Assembly: GCA_963662715.1 (NCBI GenBank)
Contig: OY759724.1
Coordinates: 1,920,001 to 1,952,000 of the forward strand
DNA from: Candidatus Omnitrophota bacterium
Lineage (GTDB): Bacteria; Omnitrophota; Gorgyraeia; Zapsychrales; JANLHA01
Length of the DNA: 32,000 nucleotides
Reading direction: 5' to 3'
How positions within the stretch are numbered: the first letter of the stretch is position 1; every line of letters starts with the position of its first letter. Positions 1-2,848 of the stretch are shown here, piece by piece. The notes below the pieces were generated by a model. It ran no database searches and was not told the origin of the DNA. It saw nothing but the letters and a program-made list of their open reading frames with translations. Made by a program: the position numbers and the translations under genes.

Positions 1-392
1 AAACGGTGGCGATACCGCATCAAAGCACGAGCATCACGATGAAAGCGGGAAACACGGTAAGCTTTGGGCAAGAGATCGGCTCTCAAGAGGTCAGCTAAAA
101 CAGAAGCAGAGATTTTATCGGTTTTAATGCGTTGTTCGGCAATAGCCTTAGTTCGCGCGGTATGAGCGAGAGAAACATCTAAGCCGGCCTCTTCAAGCAA
201 GTCACCGAGCCAAAGGTCAAAGCCAGAGGCTTCCAGTGCGACAGAAGAGTTATGAGGAAGGGCTTTAAAATAATTTTTCATAGCATCTTTCTGGAAGTGA
301 TATAATTTTGTTTGATCGATGCGGTTGCCATTCTGATCTTTAACGACAACATACGAATACTTTTTGTGTTGATCGATTCCGATGTAATACAT
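1..392 (-). CDS. IS110-family transposase/recombinase, N-terminal part (partial, copy A)
   Basis: Identical to 2311-2702. AGGAGG lies upstream of the ATG at 392. The N-terminus MYYIGIDQHKK is the DEDD/RuvC-like start typical of the IS110 family. Confidence 0.9.
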   Translation of the reverse strand, partial: MYYIGIDQHKKYSYVVVKDQNGNRIDQTKLYHFQKDAMKNYFKALPHNSSVALEASGFDLWLGDLLEEAGLDVSLAHTARTKAIAEQRIKTDKISASVLADLLRADLLPKAYRVSRFHRDARALMRYRHR

Positions 393-447
393 ACGTGCCT
401 CCTTGCTGGAAGGTTGTGGTTTTTGGCTTAAAATCATTATACGCCTT

Positions 448-465
448 CCAGAGGCACGTTTTCAT
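448..465. repeat. Subterminal inverted repeat (IRR) of IS copy A
   Basis: Same sequence as 2758-2775. See the IS copy B IR pair. Confidence 0.6.
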
Positions 466-475
466 ACTATCACTA

Positions 476-536
476 CAGCGGAGCCCCTCGCCACCTTCGG
501 CAGACTCGGGACCCCGCTGAGTTCGTTGCGTTGTCT
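476..536 (+). repeat. attC site, right part. The left part is displaced beyond the window by IS copy A.
   Basis: CAGCGG...CCGCTGAGTTCGTTGCGTTGTCT aligns with 796-855 and 2786-2848. The GTT-type core is at 530-536. Confidence 0.65.
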
Positions 537-698
537 GGCTGGAGAAATTGGTGGCGGGAAATTTCATATGAGAAGCGGAGTGGCGTTTGCGGTTAAGAAA
601 TCTGCTGTTGGTGACGAAATACAAGATGATGAGGATTCCAGTCAGAAATTCGAAGTATCGTTAGAGGCGGGTGGCATCACAAAAGAGAAGAGATAAAT

Positions 699-750
699 AA
701 AATTGGGGTGGTCTTTTTTAAGAGTTTGTTAGAAGCGAAACCCCAATTTT
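699..750 (+). terminator. Long hairpin in the ORF-less cassette. It could be a terminator or a structured RNA.
   Basis: AAAATTGGGGT (699-709) is perfectly complementary to ACCCCAATTTT (740-750). The loop is 30 nt and a T-run follows the 3' arm. Confidence 0.25.
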
Positions 751-779
751 GAGAATAGATTCGGTTCAGCAAACAGTTC

Positions 780-855
780 AGACAACAAGTCACTTCAGCG
801 GAGCGCTCGGCACCTTCGGCAGCCTCGCGACCCCGCTGAGTTCCTTGCGTTAGAG
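780..855 (+). repeat. attC site, intact. It is the same subtype as the two IS-occupied sites.
   Basis: AGACAAC AAGTCAC ... stem TCAGCGG (795-801) / CCGCTGA (833-839) ... GCGTTAGAG (GTTAGAG at 849-855). An internal cUUCGg-type loop lies at 814-819. Confidence 0.7.
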
Positions 856-872
856 CCAAACAAATAAAAGCC

Positions 873-909
873 TTGATCTACACATTATAATGTGTTATAT
901 TTTGTGTAG
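873..909 (+). promoter_or_regulatory. vapBC promoter with operator-like palindromes
   Basis: -35 TTGATC (873-878), a 17-nt spacer, then -10 TATATT (896-901). The perfect 16-bp palindrome ACACATTATAATGTGT (880-895) fills the spacer. A second inverted repeat pairs CTACACA (878-884) with TGTGTAG (903-909). Confidence 0.5.
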
Positions 910-924
910 AAGGAGGTGTGAAAA

Positions 925-1122
925 ATGGCCACAAATTTAGCTTTAGATGATAAATTGATCGTTCTTGCGCAAAAAATAGGTCACCATAAGACGAAAAGGG
1001 AAGCTGTTACCGCGGCACTGAAAGAATATATTACGCACAAAAAACAGCTTGAAGTTAATAATTTTTTTGGAACGATTGATTTTGATAAGAACTACGATTA
1101 CAAAAAAGCAAGGAAGAGATGA
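925..1122 (+). CDS. vapB: Type II antitoxin, VapB-like (65 aa)
   Basis: GAAGGAGG RBS. Small protein whose stop overlaps the start of the downstream PIN gene (ATGA). The N-terminal MATNLALDDKL pattern is typical of VapB-family antitoxins. Confidence 0.75.
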   Translation: MATNLALDDKLIVLAQKIGHHKTKREAVTAALKEYITHKKQLEVNNFFGTIDFDKNYDYKKARKR

Positions 1123-1514
1123 AAATTCTTGTGGATACATGTATTTGGTCAGAAGTTTTACGACATAAGAAGCCAAATGCAGACCTGATATCAAAATTTA
1201 GAGATTTGATTGAAGATGGAAGAGTAACAATAATTGGTCCAATAAGGCAAGAATTGCTCTCCGGAATCCCCAATCCTGAACAATTTAAAAAACTAAGAAA
1301 AGTTTTATCTGCTTTCCCCGATATCCCCCTTAATACAGAGCATTTTGAGAAAGCTGCAGAATTTTGTAATATTTGTAGACAAAAAGGAGTACAAGGTTCG
1401 ACTATAGATTTCTTAATTTGCGCGGTTGCTTCGACAGAAAAAATTTTTATTTATACAATAGATAAAGATTTTGAAAATTATATAAAATATTTACCTATAA
1501 AATTGTTTAAATAA
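1119..1514 (+). CDS. vapC: PIN-domain toxin, VapC-like (131 aa)
   Basis: MKILVDTCIW carries the N-terminal acidic PIN residue. Size and the 4-nt overlap with the antitoxin gene fit a VapBC pair. Confidence 0.8.
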   Translation: MKILVDTCIWSEVLRHKKPNADLISKFRDLIEDGRVTIIGPIRQELLSGIPNPEQFKKLRKVLSAFPDIPLNTEHFEKAAEFCNICRQKGVQGSTIDFLICAVASTEKIFIYTIDKDFENYIKYLPIKLFK

Positions 1515-1516
1515 AG

Positions 1517-1532
1517 CTCTAACAAGTCATCC
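1517..1532 (+). repeat. attC site, left part (split by IS copy B)
   Basis: CTCTAACAAGTCATCC directly after the vapC stop. It matches the first 16 nt of the attC copies at 3593 and 4199. Confidence 0.65.
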
Positions 1533-1550
1533 ATGAAAACAGTCATCTGG
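1533..1550. repeat. Terminal inverted repeat (IRL) of IS copy B
   Basis: ATGAAAACAGTCATCTGG versus the reverse complement of 2758-2775, ATGAAAACGTGCCTCTGG (14/18 identical, first 8 exact). Confidence 0.6.
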
Positions 1551-1694
1551 TCAAGCATAAAATAGAAAGGCCAAATCATCCATTCGCGCTATATTCCCCA
1601 AAAGGACTTATGCGCACAATAGCGTATTATGACAGGGCGTGCCAATCACTACAACGGCCTTAAATATGCCAGAGTTGTTAACAGCATCACCCAT
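1551..1694 (-). ncRNA. Candidate IS-encoded guide RNA (bridge/seek RNA) in the 3' non-coding end. The strand is assumed to be co-directional with the transposase.
   Basis: Non-coding stretch between IRL and the transposase stop. Positions 1573-1583 echo the left junction 1524-1534 (10/11). Positions 1645-1658 echo the right junction 2779-2792 (13/14). Local stems flank the echoes, for example GGGCGT 1635-1640 with ACGGCC 1654-1659. Confidence 0.3.
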
Positions 1695-2702
1695 TTATAC
1701 TGACCGATATTTATACTCACAGTTGTTTTTCAAAACAGCAAAAACAGATTTTAACAGCTTATGAGCAACAGCAACTATAGCGACACCGTAACCTTTTTTA
1801 GTTCGAATCTTCTGAAAATGAGTTTGTAAATATATATCACGGCGCACAGCGGTTTGAGCCGCTTCGACAAAAGCAGTGCGTAAGTATTTATTGCCATCTT
1901 TAGTAATAGGGCCTGAATAATAGCTTTGACCTGATTGATGGACACGAGGAACAATGCCGGCGTAACGGGCAAGTTTATGCGCATTCTTAAAGCGGGAGAT
2001 GTCACCGATTTCAGCCAGGATGACATGAGCAAGAATAACCCCTATACCAGGGACAGTGTAGAGTAACCGAGCCTTAGAATCGACTTTGATGTTCAGACGG
2101 AGACGAGAATCGATTTTGTAAATATGCCGGGAGAGAATATCGATAAAGGAGAGATAATCGGCAATCATGGAAGAATAAGGTTGCCGTAAGGATAATTGAT
2201 TTAAGAAGAGTTTGCCGGAAACACCGAAGAGGTCGCTGAAAGAATGCTGAATACCCTGATAATCAAGGATAGCATGAATACGATTTTTGAGGCTAGTGCG
2301 AATGGCGATCAAACGGTGGCGATACCGCATCAAAGCACGAGCATCACGATGAAAGCGGGAAACACGGTAAGCTTTGGGCAAGAGATCGGCTCTCAAGAGG
2401 TCAGCTAAAACAGAAGCAGAGATTTTATCGGTTTTAATGCGTTGTTCGGCAATAGCCTTAGTTCGCGCGGTATGAGCGAGAGAAACATCTAAGCCGGCCT
2501 CTTCAAGCAAGTCACCGAGCCAAAGGTCAAAGCCAGAGGCTTCCAGTGCGACAGAAGAGTTATGAGGAAGGGCTTTAAAATAATTTTTCATAGCATCTTT
2601 CTGGAAGTGATATAATTTTGTTTGATCGATGCGGTTGCCATTCTGATCTTTAACGACAACATACGAATACTTTTTGTGTTGATCGATTCCGATGTAATAC
2701 AT
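1695..2702 (-). CDS. IS110-family transposase/recombinase (335 aa from the RBS-supported ATG)
   Basis: AGGAGG lies 5 nt upstream of the ATG at 2702. The longer ORF-track start at 2747 lacks an RBS. N-terminal YIGIDQHKK (DEDD domain). The C-terminal AEIGDISRF...ARYAGIVPRVHQSG motif is typical of the IS110 C-terminal domain. Confidence 0.9.
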   Translation of the reverse strand: MYYIGIDQHKKYSYVVVKDQNGNRIDQTKLYHFQKDAMKNYFKALPHNSSVALEASGFDLWLGDLLEEAGLDVSLAHTARTKAIAEQRIKTDKISASVLADLLRADLLPKAYRVSRFHRDARALMRYRHRLIAIRTSLKNRIHAILDYQGIQHSFSDLFGVSGKLFLNQLSLRQPYSSMIADYLSFIDILSRHIYKIDSRLRLNIKVDSKARLLYTVPGIGVILAHVILAEIGDISRFKNAHKLARYAGIVPRVHQSGQSYYSGPITKDGNKYLRTAFVEAAQTAVRRDIYLQTHFQKIRTKKGYGVAIVAVAHKLLKSVFAVLKNNCEYKYRSV

Positions 2703-2745
2703 ACGTGCCTCCTTTCTGGAAGGTTGTGGTTTTTGGCTTAAAATC

Positions 2746-2751
2746 ATTATA
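2746..2751 (-). promoter_or_regulatory. Possible -10 box for the IS transposase
   Basis: TATAAT on the minus strand. A weak -35 (ATGAAA) lies 18 nt upstream inside IRR. Confidence 0.3.
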
Positions 2752-2757
2752 CGCCTT

Positions 2758-2775
2758 CCAGAGGCACGTTTTCAT
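2758..2775. repeat. Subterminal inverted repeat (IRR) of IS copy B
   Basis: Partner of 1533-1550. It lies 10 nt inside the inferred IS end. Subterminal IRs are characteristic of IS1111-type elements. Confidence 0.6.
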
Positions 2776-2785
2776 ACTATCACTA

Positions 2786-2848
2786 CAGCGGCTCCGCCTT
2801 CGCCACCGTTGGCAGGCCGCGCGCCCCGCTGAGTTCGTTGCGCTAGAT
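2786..2848 (+). repeat. attC site, right part (split by IS copy B)
   Basis: CAGCGG...CCGCTGAGTTCGTTGCGCTAGAT. The core position reads GCTAGAT (2842-2848), one substitution from GTTAGAT. Confidence 0.65.

What the first reader, a model, noticed from the sequence alone, without database searches (positions are those of the whole stretch)
1..2848. Two near-identical IS110/IS1111-family copies inserted at the same nucleotide position and orientation in two different attC sites
Positions 1-475 and 2311-2785 differ at one position (405 g vs 2715 t). Both copies end in ...CATACTATCACTA and abut CAGCGG of an attC. The flanking attC right parts differ from each other (GAGCCCCTCGCC... vs GCTCCGCCTTCG...), so these are independent insertions and not a segmental duplication. 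Comparison with uninterrupted sites (AAGTCACTT|CAGCGG at 786-801, AAGTCATCC|CGTCG at 4206-4219) places copy B exactly between 1532 and 2786, with no target duplication. In both occupied sites the base 5' of CAGCGG is A where the empty site has T (795) pairing with A839, which supports that junction. The left IR is terminal and the right IR lies 10 nt inside the end. This matches the known behaviour of the IS1111-attC group of IS110-family elements, which target integron attC sites in one orientation. The attC at 780-855 is the same subtype and looks like an unoccupied target.
Basis: partly seen in the sequence, partly recalled or inferred. Interest (0 to 1): 0.75.

Follow-up and report, generated by a model that had tools for sequence, protein, structure and literature searches.

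The report
RNA-guided insertion sequence targeting integron attC sites
Two nearly identical copies of a 1.25-kb IS110/IS1111-type insertion sequence sit at the same point and in the same orientation in two different integron attC sites, apparently steered there by a guide ("bridge") RNA the element encodes; this behaviour is already known, but here it occurs in a distant, undescribed lineage from uncultivated Omnitrophota-like bacteria.

Summary
Window 1-475 and 2311-2785 differ only at 405/2715. Both copies abut CAGCGG of two different attC sites.

The element is 1253 bp. It encodes a 335-aa IS110-family DEDD transposase on the minus strand (1695-2702). Its organisation is IS1111-type, with subterminal inverted repeats and a long non-coding region 3' of tnp.

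That region (1570-1692, minus strand) folds into a two-loop bridge/seek RNA supported by covariation. Its loop strands match the attC target and the element's own ends, and they co-vary with those sequences across about 25 relatives.

There are two corrections.
1. Crossover is probably at a shared dinucleotide core (TG in the IS frame; CA at 1528-1529 and 2781-2782). The empty attC at 780-855 then differs from the guide by one base.
2. The transposase is only 23% identical to TnpKpn4, so the element lies outside the classic IS1111-attC clade.

Relatives at 59-69% identity, from Omnitrophota and unclassified MAGs, are all in attC sites. Relatives at 53% or below have different flanks and matching guide changes.

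Verdict: a real new member of a known kind, of moderate interest.

The parts
1..472 (-). IS copy A, partial (cut by the window edge): 5' part of tnp, IRL, left end and the core CA at 471-472
   Evidence: Identical to 2311-2782 except 405 G versus 2715 T.
473..536 (+). Right part of attC_A: arm CTA (473-475), stem CAGCGG (476-481) / CCGCTG (514-519), R'-like GTTGTCT (530-536)
   Evidence: Read; paralogue of the other attC right parts (D3 family).
780..855 (+). Uninterrupted attC of the same subtype: AAC 784-786, AAGT, CA 791-792 (would-be core), CTT, stem CAGCGG 796-801, R' GTTAGAG 849-855. One mismatch to the left target guide (bottom strand AAG versus guide UAG).
   Evidence: folds as a hairpin with a bulged A.
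925..1514 (+). vapB-vapC toxin-antitoxin cassette whose attC is the one interrupted by copy B
   Evidence: Pfam VapB_antitoxin and PIN.
1517..1529 (+). Left (R''-side) part of attC_B: CTCTAAC-AAGT-CA; CA 1528-1529 is the crossover core
1530..2782 (-). IS copy B, 1253 bp counted with one copy of the core (equivalently 1528-2780).
   Evidence: Core concordance 24/24; attC arm complementarity; L090/L160.
1533..1550 (-). Right subterminal inverted repeat (IS frame CCAGATGACTGTTTTCAT), followed by GGA and then the core
   Evidence: pair I1.
1549..1554 (-). Outward-facing -35-like TTGACC near the right end. TTGAC is present at this place in all relatives whose right ends were read. It could form a junction promoter in the circular form with GATGAT (17-nt spacer) or TAGTAT (22-nt spacer).
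   Evidence: The promoter role is inferred.
1570..1692 (-). Predicted bridge/seek RNA with two internal loops closed by stems P1/P1b, P2, P3 and P4
   Evidence: RNAalifold. Pair counts: 93.8% paired, 10 pairs with compensatory changes, 0/500 shuffles reach the observed values. The covariance model finds it full-length just 3' of tnp in 51 matches.
1672..1681 (-). Right target guide strand UUAACAACUC, antisense to the attC bottom strand G-ACTTGTTA(A), which contains the R'' box
   Evidence: Own versus other flanks 7.42 versus 5.90 of 9 matches; 0/5000 permutations.
1645..1654 (-). Left target guide strand UUGUAG-UG-AU, same sense as the attC bottom strand CTG-TAG-TG (stem end, arm and core)
   Evidence: Own versus other flanks 7.00 versus 6.13 of 9; 0/5000 permutations. 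WIN UAG / L001 GAU co-vary with the flank.
1617..1629 (-). Right donor guide strand (..GCUAUUG), antisense to the left end TG-ATAG. Weakly supported.
   Evidence: CUAU/ATAG versus UUAU/ATAA co-variation among close relatives. The permutation test is weak, 293/5000.
1574..1584 (-). Left donor guide strand AAUGGA-UG-AUU, same sense as the IS right end (C)AT-GGA plus the core
   Evidence: Perfect 7/7 match to the element's own right end in 24/24 elements; 0/5000 permutations.
1695..2702 (-). tnp, 335 aa, IS110-family DEDD/Tnp transposase (D7, E54, D92; S95 where the fourth Asp is expected; S257 in the conserved SG motif). RBS AGGAGG lies within 2700-2713.
2758..2775 (-). Left subterminal inverted repeat (IS frame ATGAAAACGTGCCTCTGG), 5 nt inside the core
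2783..2848 (+). Right part of attC_B: arm CTA 2783-2785, stem CAGCGG 2786-2791 / CCGCTG 2826-2831, R'-position GCTAGAT 2842-2848

Best explanation
The feature is a 1253-bp insertion sequence of the IS110 superfamily with IS1111-type layout: subterminal inverted repeats, a short left end, and a long right end that encodes a guide RNA. It is present in two near-identical copies in the attC sites of a chromosomal cassette array in an Omnitrophota-like genome.

The RNA is encoded just 3' of tnp (1570-1692, minus strand) and has two internal loops.
- In the target loop, one strand (UUGUAG-UG) has the sequence of the attC bottom strand at the end of the stem plus the arm (CTG-TAG-TG). The other strand (UUAACAACUC) is complementary to the next bases of that strand (G-ACTTGTTA), which carry the conserved R'' box.
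- In the donor loop, one strand (AAUGGA-UG) has the sequence of the IS right end plus the core. The other strand (CUAU..) is complementary to the left end.

By analogy with IS621, ISEc11 and ISKpn4, the excised circular IS and the attC are brought together by this RNA. They recombine at the 2-nt core TG, which is CA in the attC top strand, 4 nt 3' of the R'' AAC. This gives one position and one orientation, antisense to the cassettes, with no target duplication beyond the core at both ends.

Shown here: the copies, the transposase family, the conserved RNA structure, the guide-flank and guide-end co-variation, and attC insertion of all close relatives.

Inferred: that the RNA is made and bound, the circle intermediate, the junction promoter, and the exact strand-exchange points.
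For: - Copies and flanks.
- Transposase: Pfam PF01548 + PF02371; NCBIfam 'IS110 family RNA-guided transposase', 230 bits against a cut-off of 140.
- attC insertion in the clade: relatives at 59-69% identity (L001-L008, L011-L013, L090, L091, L098, L160) all sit in hairpin sites of the form ..CAGCGG..CCGCTG-NNN-TG | IS | ..TG-NCTTGTTA, at the same point. One of them lies next to an integron integrase (TIGR02249, 412 bits).
- Retargeting: relatives at 53% identity or less have other flanks, and their guide strands change to match. For example, L014 has guide GAUUACAC against flank GTGTAATC, and L022 has guide GUGUCU against flank AGACAC.
- Permutation tests over 24 elements: right end 7/7 in 24/24; right-target antisense 7.42 versus 5.90; left-target sense 7.00 versus 6.13; 0/5000 permutations each.
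- RNA structure: 27 predicted pairs, 10 with compensatory changes, 93.8% paired against 28-42% when the partners are slid, 0/500 shuffles.
- Covariance model: full-length matches directly 3' of tnp in 51 matches, most of them in sequences outside the training set.
- Core: the same dinucleotide at both junctions in 24/24 elements (18 TG, 6 AG). The rebuilt attC_B (AACAAGTCACTACAGCGG) differs by 1 nt from the empty site at 784-801.
- Published mechanism: PMC11208160, PMC11208158, PMC11187229.
Against: - No expression data exist for the RNA, and Rfam has no matching family.
- The right donor guide is only weakly supported (293/5000 permutations).
- The junction refinement is indirect. No true empty allele of either occupied attC could be found.
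- For attC_B itself the two reconstructions fold equally well.
- Two copies in one MAG (L090, L160) have TG at the left junction but CG at the right, so the core is not always identical.
- The fourth catalytic Asp of the DEDD motif appears to be Ser.
- The junction table behind one search was curated by hand.
- The other end of copy A and the rest of the genome could not be read.
Confidence: 0.8

Rival explanations
1. The element is a member of the IS1111-attC group (ISPst6/ISPa21/ISKpn4 lineage). It is inserted exactly between 1532|1533 and 2785|2786, with a terminal IR on one side and no shared core.
For: The position near the R'' end and the antisense orientation match that group. ISKpn4 in L009 is likewise in an attC next to TGAATTGTTAG. 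An uninterrupted attC with the arm AAGTCATCC exists at 4199-4270. For attC_B the two reconstructions fold equally well.
Against: The transposase is 23% identical to TnpKpn4, against at least 46% inside the group. The RNA model built here does not match ISKpn4 or ISPa21 at E <= 0.01. The same dinucleotide is found at both junctions in 24/24 relatives at a fixed register. In relatives the 3 nt next to the stem pair with the opposite attC arm, as target DNA would. In IS621, the characterised IS110-family element, target and donor share a 2-nt core.
Confidence: 0.12
2. The two copies come from duplication or homologous recombination of a block that already contained the IS. They are not two separate insertions.
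For: Only one flank of copy A is in the window. Copies of a related IS show exchanged flanks: L002-L004 and L005 share the right flank but not the left. Recombination between copies therefore does occur.
Against: Identity ends 6 nt beyond the IS, inside the conserved attC stem. The attC right parts are only 73-75% alike, and the cassettes that follow are unrelated. At least 12 different attC sites are occupied at the same point in relatives.
Confidence: 0.04
3. Targeting depends on protein recognition of the folded attC hairpin, as with the integron integrase. The matches between the non-coding region and the target are incidental.
For: The target is a structured site. Part of the left-target match (CCG) lies in a stem of the RNA and is conserved in relatives with other targets.
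Against: The variable loop positions change together with the flanks in relatives whose targets are not attC sites. The same has been shown experimentally for ISKpn4/ISPst6 seekRNA and IS621 bridge RNA.
Confidence: 0.05
4. attC targeting here is inherited from a common ancestor shared with the classic IS1111-attC group. It was not acquired independently.
For: By my reading of the ISKpn4/ISPa21 guides and the canonical site TTGGA-CG-AATTGTTAG, both lineages cross over 4 nt 3' of the R'' AAC. Both have the same orientation and the same RNA layout.
Against: Identity is 23%, lower than the 29-36% between TnpKpn4 and non-attC IS1111 members. The nearest relatives of this clade (47-53% identity) have non-attC flanks. 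Guide RNAs are easily retargeted.
Confidence: 0.2

Closest known systems
IS1111-attC group (ISPst6, ISPa21, ISKpn4; more distantly ISPa25)
   Same: Both are DEDD-transposase ISs with subterminal IRs and a long 3' non-coding region encoding a seekRNA. Both insert into integron attC sites near the R'' (5') end, in one orientation antisense to the cassettes, without a target duplication. By my reading the crossover is 4 nt 3' of the R'' AAC in both.
   Different: The transposase is only 23% identical. The RNA model built here does not detect their RNAs. The core is TG here and CG there. The hosts are uncultivated Omnitrophota-like bacteria with sedentary arrays, not Pseudomonas or Enterobacteriaceae with mobile integrons. 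The attC type is different.
IS621 and other IS110-group elements with bridge RNA (Durrant et al. 2024; Hiraizumi et al. 2024)
   Same: The RNA has two loops, each with a sense 'left' guide and an antisense 'right' guide. A 2-nt core is shared by donor and target. An outward -35 sits at the right end.
   Different: Here the RNA lies 3' of tnp. The order within each loop is right guide first and then left guide, as reported for IS1111-type elements. The IRs are long and subterminal. The antisense guides barely cover the core.
ISEc11 / ISPa11 seekRNA elements (Siddiquee et al. 2024)
   Same: IS1111-type layout. The RNA is about 70-100 nt and lies downstream of tnp. The segment that pairs with the target top strand lies 5' of the segment that pairs with the bottom strand.
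   Different: Their targets are a linear site and REP elements. Relatedness to the present transposase was not measured, and they are not close by any search done here.
Group IIC-attC introns
   Same: They also insert near the 5' end of attC, antisense to the cassettes.
   Different: They are retroelements with a reverse transcriptase and ribozyme. Here there is a DEDD transposase and no intron RNA family match.

Membership tests
IS110 superfamily (DEDD/Tnp transposase) | N-terminal RuvC-like DEDD domain plus C-terminal Tnp domain | tested here: met
   PF01548 (1.2e-15) and PF02371 (2.8e-27); NF033542 at 230 bits against a cut-off of 140.
IS110 superfamily (DEDD/Tnp transposase) | Catalytic residues D, E, D, D and the Ser nucleophile | tested here: inconclusive
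   D7, E54, D92 and S257 are conserved in 27-28 of 28 relatives. The position aligned with the fourth Asp of TnpKpn4 is Ser95 here and in 20/28 relatives, and Asp in 8/28. Two near-identical copies argue that the element is active.
IS1111 group (as opposed to IS110 group) | Subterminal inverted repeats of 7-17 bp or more | tested here: met
   The 18-nt arms at 1533-1550 / 2758-2775 are 78% complementary. On the core model they lie 3 nt and 5 nt inside the core.
IS1111 group (as opposed to IS110 group) | Long non-coding region and guide RNA 3' of tnp (in the right end) | tested here: met
   About 165 nt lie 3' of tnp against about 80 nt 5' of it. The structured RNA is at 1570-1692.
IS1111 group (as opposed to IS110 group) | Placement in the IS1111 branch of a transposase tree with ISfinder references | not tested
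   Only TnpKpn4 was compared (23%). No tree with reference sequences was built.
IS1111-attC group (Tetu & Holmes 2008) | Insertion in attC near the R'' end, antisense to the cassettes | tested here: met
   description of the group.
IS1111-attC group (Tetu & Holmes 2008) | Transposase belongs to the monophyletic ISPst6/ISPa21/ISKpn4 clade | tested here: not met
   23% identity to TnpKpn4. Within the group identity is 74-90%; ISPa25 is 46% identical; TnpKpn4 is 29-36% identical to non-attC IS1111 elements. The best plasmid-database match of any kind is 39%.
Bridge RNA / seekRNA-guided recombination | [quoted passage not shown] | tested here: met
   The donor right guide is weak.
Bridge RNA / seekRNA-guided recombination | The RNA is expressed, binds the transposase and is required for transposition | not testable with these tools
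   Needs RNA sequencing, co-purification and genetics.
Integron attC site (target) | Imperfect hairpin bounded by R'' (RYYYAAC) and R' (GTTRRRY), following each cassette in one orientation | tested here: met
   Sites at 780-855, 3593-3670 and about 6817-6897 have both boxes, and the 780-855 site folds as a bulged hairpin. Cassette ORFs are all on the + strand from 1 to about 6900. Some R' boxes are degenerate (2842-2848; the 4199 site).
Integron attC site (target) | Integron integrase next to the array | tested here: inconclusive
   No intI lies in the window, and the array runs off the left edge. In relative L002 an integron integrase (TIGR02249, 412 bits) lies next to the occupied first cassette.

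The most novel reading that the evidence does not exclude
attC targeting arose a second time, independently, in a deep IS1111-like lineage of Omnitrophota and allied uncultivated bacteria, by retargeting of the bridge-RNA loops. It converged on the same crossover point of the attC (4 nt 3' of the R'' AAC) and the same orientation as the classic IS1111-attC elements. That would mark this spot as a privileged landing site. It would also offer a natural series of retargeted guides (attC, REP-like and other targets), including copies where a U:G wobble at the core is tolerated and resolved asymmetrically (L090, L160).
Probability: 0.5. Interest if true: 0.5.

Novelty: new member of a known kind. 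Interest (0 to 1): 0.38.

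Why it matters
Insertion sequences that home to attC sites split the recombination site. 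That can freeze neighbouring cassettes in place and gives the array repeated sequences to recombine. Until now this was known for one clade, found mainly in Pseudomonas and Enterobacteriaceae. A distant lineage doing the same in sedentary integrons of uncultivated phyla shows that the habit is wider than that clade. Its recognisable guide RNA explains the targeting. The set of relatives with different targets and matching guide changes is a ready-made natural dataset for how IS1111-type bridge RNAs are laid out and retargeted. The finding does not change the known picture of either integrons or IS110-family mechanism.

Tried and rejected
- Source genome. I tried to fetch it to see the other end of copy A, all copies and any empty alleles. 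Exact look-ups of the transposase, its cluster representative, VapC and the 233-aa cassette protein all returned nothing. The first genome-contig scan also found nothing. Cluster look-ups show only that the window comes from a 3,360,633-bp NCBI/ENA contig, which carries a second transposase variant, G304D.
- Rfam. No family matched at gathering or permissive thresholds.
- Plasmid database by DNA. Only one short 75% match.
- Tetu & Holmes 2008 (PMC2447020) is not held, so the group's published insertion point was taken second-hand and from ISKpn4/ISPa21 sequences.
- My first attC scan by regular expression and folding was too strict and useless.
- Automatic detection of the terminal repeats was noisy, so the junctions were curated by hand.
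I dropped this when the fixed-register core appeared.
- I first took GUCAUA as a donor guide. It is better explained as stem P3.
- VapC homologues were only 76-78% identical or less, too distant to give the empty form of attC_B, so they were not followed up.
- A junction promoter could be judged only by eye.

Full report
**1. The observation**

Window 1-475 and 2311-2785 differ at one position (405 G, 2715 T). Identity runs on through CAGCGG to 481/2791 and then stops. The sequences that follow are paralogous attC right halves that are only 73-75% alike (D3 family), and the cassettes after them are unrelated. The two copies therefore lie in two different attC sites.

Copy A is cut by the window edge, so only one of its flanks is visible. 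The only long ORF in the element, 1695-2702 on the minus strand (335 aa, preceded by AGGAGG), carries the two Pfam domains of IS110-family transposases. It also matches NCBIfam NF033542, 'IS110 family RNA-guided transposase' (230 bits, cut-off 140). Cassette genes from 1 to about 6900 are all on the + strand, and each is followed by an attC-like hairpin. The transposase gene is therefore antisense to the cassettes. From about 7 kb onward the window looks like ordinary chromosome, with radical SAM, ferredoxin, PhoH and permease genes.

**2. Source and relatives**

The window comes from a 3,360,633-bp NCBI/ENA contig, which also holds a one-residue variant of the transposase. The genome itself could not be fetched. 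The best named homologues of its PhoH-like protein, at 66-68% identity, are from Candidatus Omnitrophica.

The transposase has nothing closer than 39% identity in 72,556 plasmids. Metagenomes and MAGs hold many relatives, labelled Omnitrophota or Elusimicrobia, at 60-69% identity.

I fetched the DNA around relatives from assemblies, metagenome contigs and species-representative genomes.

- Every relative at 59-69% identity whose flanks are present is in a hairpin site of the same form, at the same point. These are L001-L008, L011-L013, L090, L091, L098 and L160, covering at least a dozen different sites. In the IS frame the pattern is ...CAGCGG...CCGCTG-NNN-TG-ATAGT-ATGAAAAC...tnp...TTTTCAT-GGA-TG-NCTTGTTA.
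- In L002 the occupied site belongs to the first cassette next to an integron integrase (TIGR02249, 412 bits).
- Relatives at 53% identity or less have quite different flanks, some of them repeated palindromic elements.

**3. The guide RNA**

The roughly 165 nt between the stop codon and the right end are conserved in outline among relatives. An alignment of nine elements gives the following consensus structure:

- an outer stem (P1/P1b);
- a 10 x 10 internal loop closed by hairpin P2;
- a second stem (P3);
- a second internal loop closed by hairpin P4.

Of the 27 predicted pairs, 10 show compensatory changes. 93.8% of cells are paired, against 28-42% when the partners are slid, and 0 of 500 shuffles reach the observed values. 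A covariance model built from this alignment finds a full-length match on the tnp strand directly 3' of tnp. It gave 51 matches, most of them in sequences not used to build it, and exactly one in the window (1569-1694, minus strand). It does not match ISKpn4 or ISPa21. Rfam has no corresponding family.

The four loop strands behave as the guides described for IS621, in the reversed order reported for IS1111-type elements.

| Strand | Window coordinates (minus strand) | Sequence | Relation |
|---|---|---|---|
| Right target guide | 1672-1681 | UUAACAACUC | complementary to G-ACTTGTTA(A) of the attC bottom strand, which contains the R'' box |
| Left target guide | 1645-1654 | UUGUAG-UG-AU | same sequence as CTG-TAG-TG of the attC bottom strand |
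| Right donor guide | 1617-1629 | ..GCUAUUG | CUAU is complementary to ATAG of the left end |
| Left donor guide | 1574-1584 | AAUGGA-UG-AUU | same sequence as the IS right end AT-GGA-TG |

Across 24 hand-curated elements:

- The right-end match is perfect (7/7) in all 24.
- The right-target match averages 7.42 of 9 against the element's own flank and 5.90 against other elements' flanks.
- The left-target match averages 7.00 against 6.13.
- None of 5000 permutations reaches any of these three values.
- The right donor guide is weak (293/5000).

Examples of co-variation:

- WIN UAG and L001 GAU match the flanks TAG and GAT.
- L001 and L008 have guide AAAGC against flank GCTTT, and L007 has guide AAGUC against flank GACTT.
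- L014 has guide GAUUACAC against flank GTGTAATC.
- L018 has guide AAGAGAUG against right end CAG-AGA-TG.

**4. Where the crossover is**

In 24 of 24 elements the same dinucleotide (TG in 18, AG in 6) lies 5-6 nt outside the left repeat and 3 nt outside the right repeat, and both sense guides contain it. This is the signature of a core shared by donor and target, like CT in IS621.

In the window the core is CA on the + strand, at 1528-1529 and 2781-2782. On this reading TCC 1530-1532 is the end of the IS and CTA 2783-2785 is attC. The element is 1530-2782 (or 1528-2780), still 1253 bp, and both repeats are subterminal.

Three further points favour this reading.

- The rebuilt attC_B (AACAAGT-CA-CTA-CAGCGG) differs by one base from the empty site at 784-801. 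It resembles uninterrupted sites next to L007 (CCGCTG-TAG-TG-CCTTGTT).
For attC_B the two models tie.
- The four guides then have the expected sense/antisense pattern.

Three points count against it.

- No true empty allele was available.
- In L090 and L160 the left junction has TG and the right junction CG. I read that last case as a target with core CG paired to the guide U by wobble, with the donor base kept on the left and the target base on the right. This is an inference.

I put about 0.7 on the core model.

One consequence follows from it. The base 5' of CAGCGG, A in both occupied sites and T at 795, is a difference between targets. The occupied sites match the guide (UAG) and the empty one (AAG) has one mismatch. 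The site at 780-855 is therefore a plausible but slightly poorer target. The 3593 site has two left-side mismatches. The 4199 site has a perfect right side but a poor left side.

**5. Comparison with what is known**

ISs that home to attC are known: the IS1111-attC group (ISPst6, ISPa21, ISKpn4, and more distantly ISPa25). They insert near the 5' end of the attC, antisense to the cassettes, and their targeting has been traced to a seekRNA encoded 3' of tnp.

The present element works the same way but is not a member of that clade. It is 23% identical to TnpKpn4. Group members are 74-90% identical to each other, ISPa25 is 46% identical to them, and TnpKpn4 is 29-36% identical to IS1111-family elements with other targets.

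I read ISKpn4 and ISPa21 from plasmids. Their left-guide-like strand UUGAA-CG, their right-end-like strand AUAU(G/A)-CG, and the canonical site TTGGA-CG-AATTGTTAG put their crossover 4 nt 3' of the R'' AAC. That is the same place as here (AAC-AAGT-CA). This is my inference, since the original paper is not held.

The nearest relatives of the present clade have other targets, and guides are easily changed. Independent acquisition of attC targeting is therefore somewhat more likely than inheritance, but no tree with reference sequences was built.

**6. Verdict**

What is new is modest:

- an undescribed, distant lineage with the same habit, in uncultivated bacteria;
- an explicit guide RNA with coordinates;
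- a corrected junction.

It is a new member of a known kind. The mechanism rests on sequence co-variation and on analogy with IS621, ISEc11 and ISKpn4. Expression of the RNA, the circle and the strand-exchange points remain to be shown.

Noticed in passing
window 4199-4270: This uninterrupted attC has the arm AAGT-CA-TCC next to its stem. TCC is the same 3 nt as the IS right end next to the core at 1530-1532. It could be chance (1 in 64 per site, with several sites present) or a trace of a past IS. The site also lacks a recognisable R' GTT.
   Followed up: partly
window 2842-2848: At the R' position of attC_B the sequence is GCTAGAT, where the empty paralogue has GTTAGAG (849-855). The conserved GTT crossover triplet is lost, so this attC may be inactive for the integrase even without the IS.
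   Followed up: no
window 2416-2424 (codons for D92-S95), minus strand: The transposase motif is KTDKISA, where TnpKpn4 has KTDRNDC. The position of the fourth DEDD Asp is Ser in this protein and in 20 of 28 relatives, and Asp in 8 more distant ones.
   Followed up: partly
L090 and L160 (MAG STD1_102): Two copies of one IS in two attC sites both have TG at the left junction and CG at the right junction, while both sense guides read UG. This looks like a tolerated core mismatch that is resolved the same way twice.
   Followed up: partly
L001-L005 (JGI metagenomes): Copies of one IS (identical transposase P0014) combine flanks in different ways. L001 and L002-L004 share the left flank but not the right. 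L002-L004 and L005 share the right flank but not the left. This suggests recombination between IS copies within cassette arrays.
   Followed up: no
L011 1230-1250: The left target guide strand carries a 5-nt duplication (GGATTGGATTGAT, where relatives have GGATTGAT). Its attC flank also reads CCGCTC and not CCGCTG.
   Followed up: no
L113-L116, L131, L119, L121 and others: Relatives at 35-40% identity occur in several copies in archaeal MAGs (Bathyarchaeia, Nitrososphaerales, Thermoplasmata), so the wider subfamily spans bacteria and archaea. Their targets were not examined.
   Followed up: no
L092 (Omnitrophica CG11) and L016: A relative at 47% identity is inserted next to GGCACTTTTAGAACTGGTACC. 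The reverse complement of this sequence occurs twice just upstream, so its target looks like a repeated palindromic (REP-like) element and not an attC.
   Followed up: no
L007 2478-2510 and 2803-2835: Two uninterrupted attCs (CCGCTG-TAG-TG-CCTTGTTG) match the left target guide of the neighbouring IS perfectly, while the occupied site has GAG. Only the right side differs from the guide, by two bases.
   Followed up: no
L010 (Pseudomonas aeruginosa plasmid pS810a): ISPa21 here is not in an attC. Both of its junctions carry ATA-CG-AATTG, and its left end differs from that of ISKpn4. This may be an off-target or rearranged insertion.
   Followed up: no
window 925-1514 and 2876-3577: The cassettes flanking copy B are a vapBC toxin-antitoxin pair and a membrane protein with a weak M50-peptidase match that is below Pfam's cut-off.
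   Followed up: no
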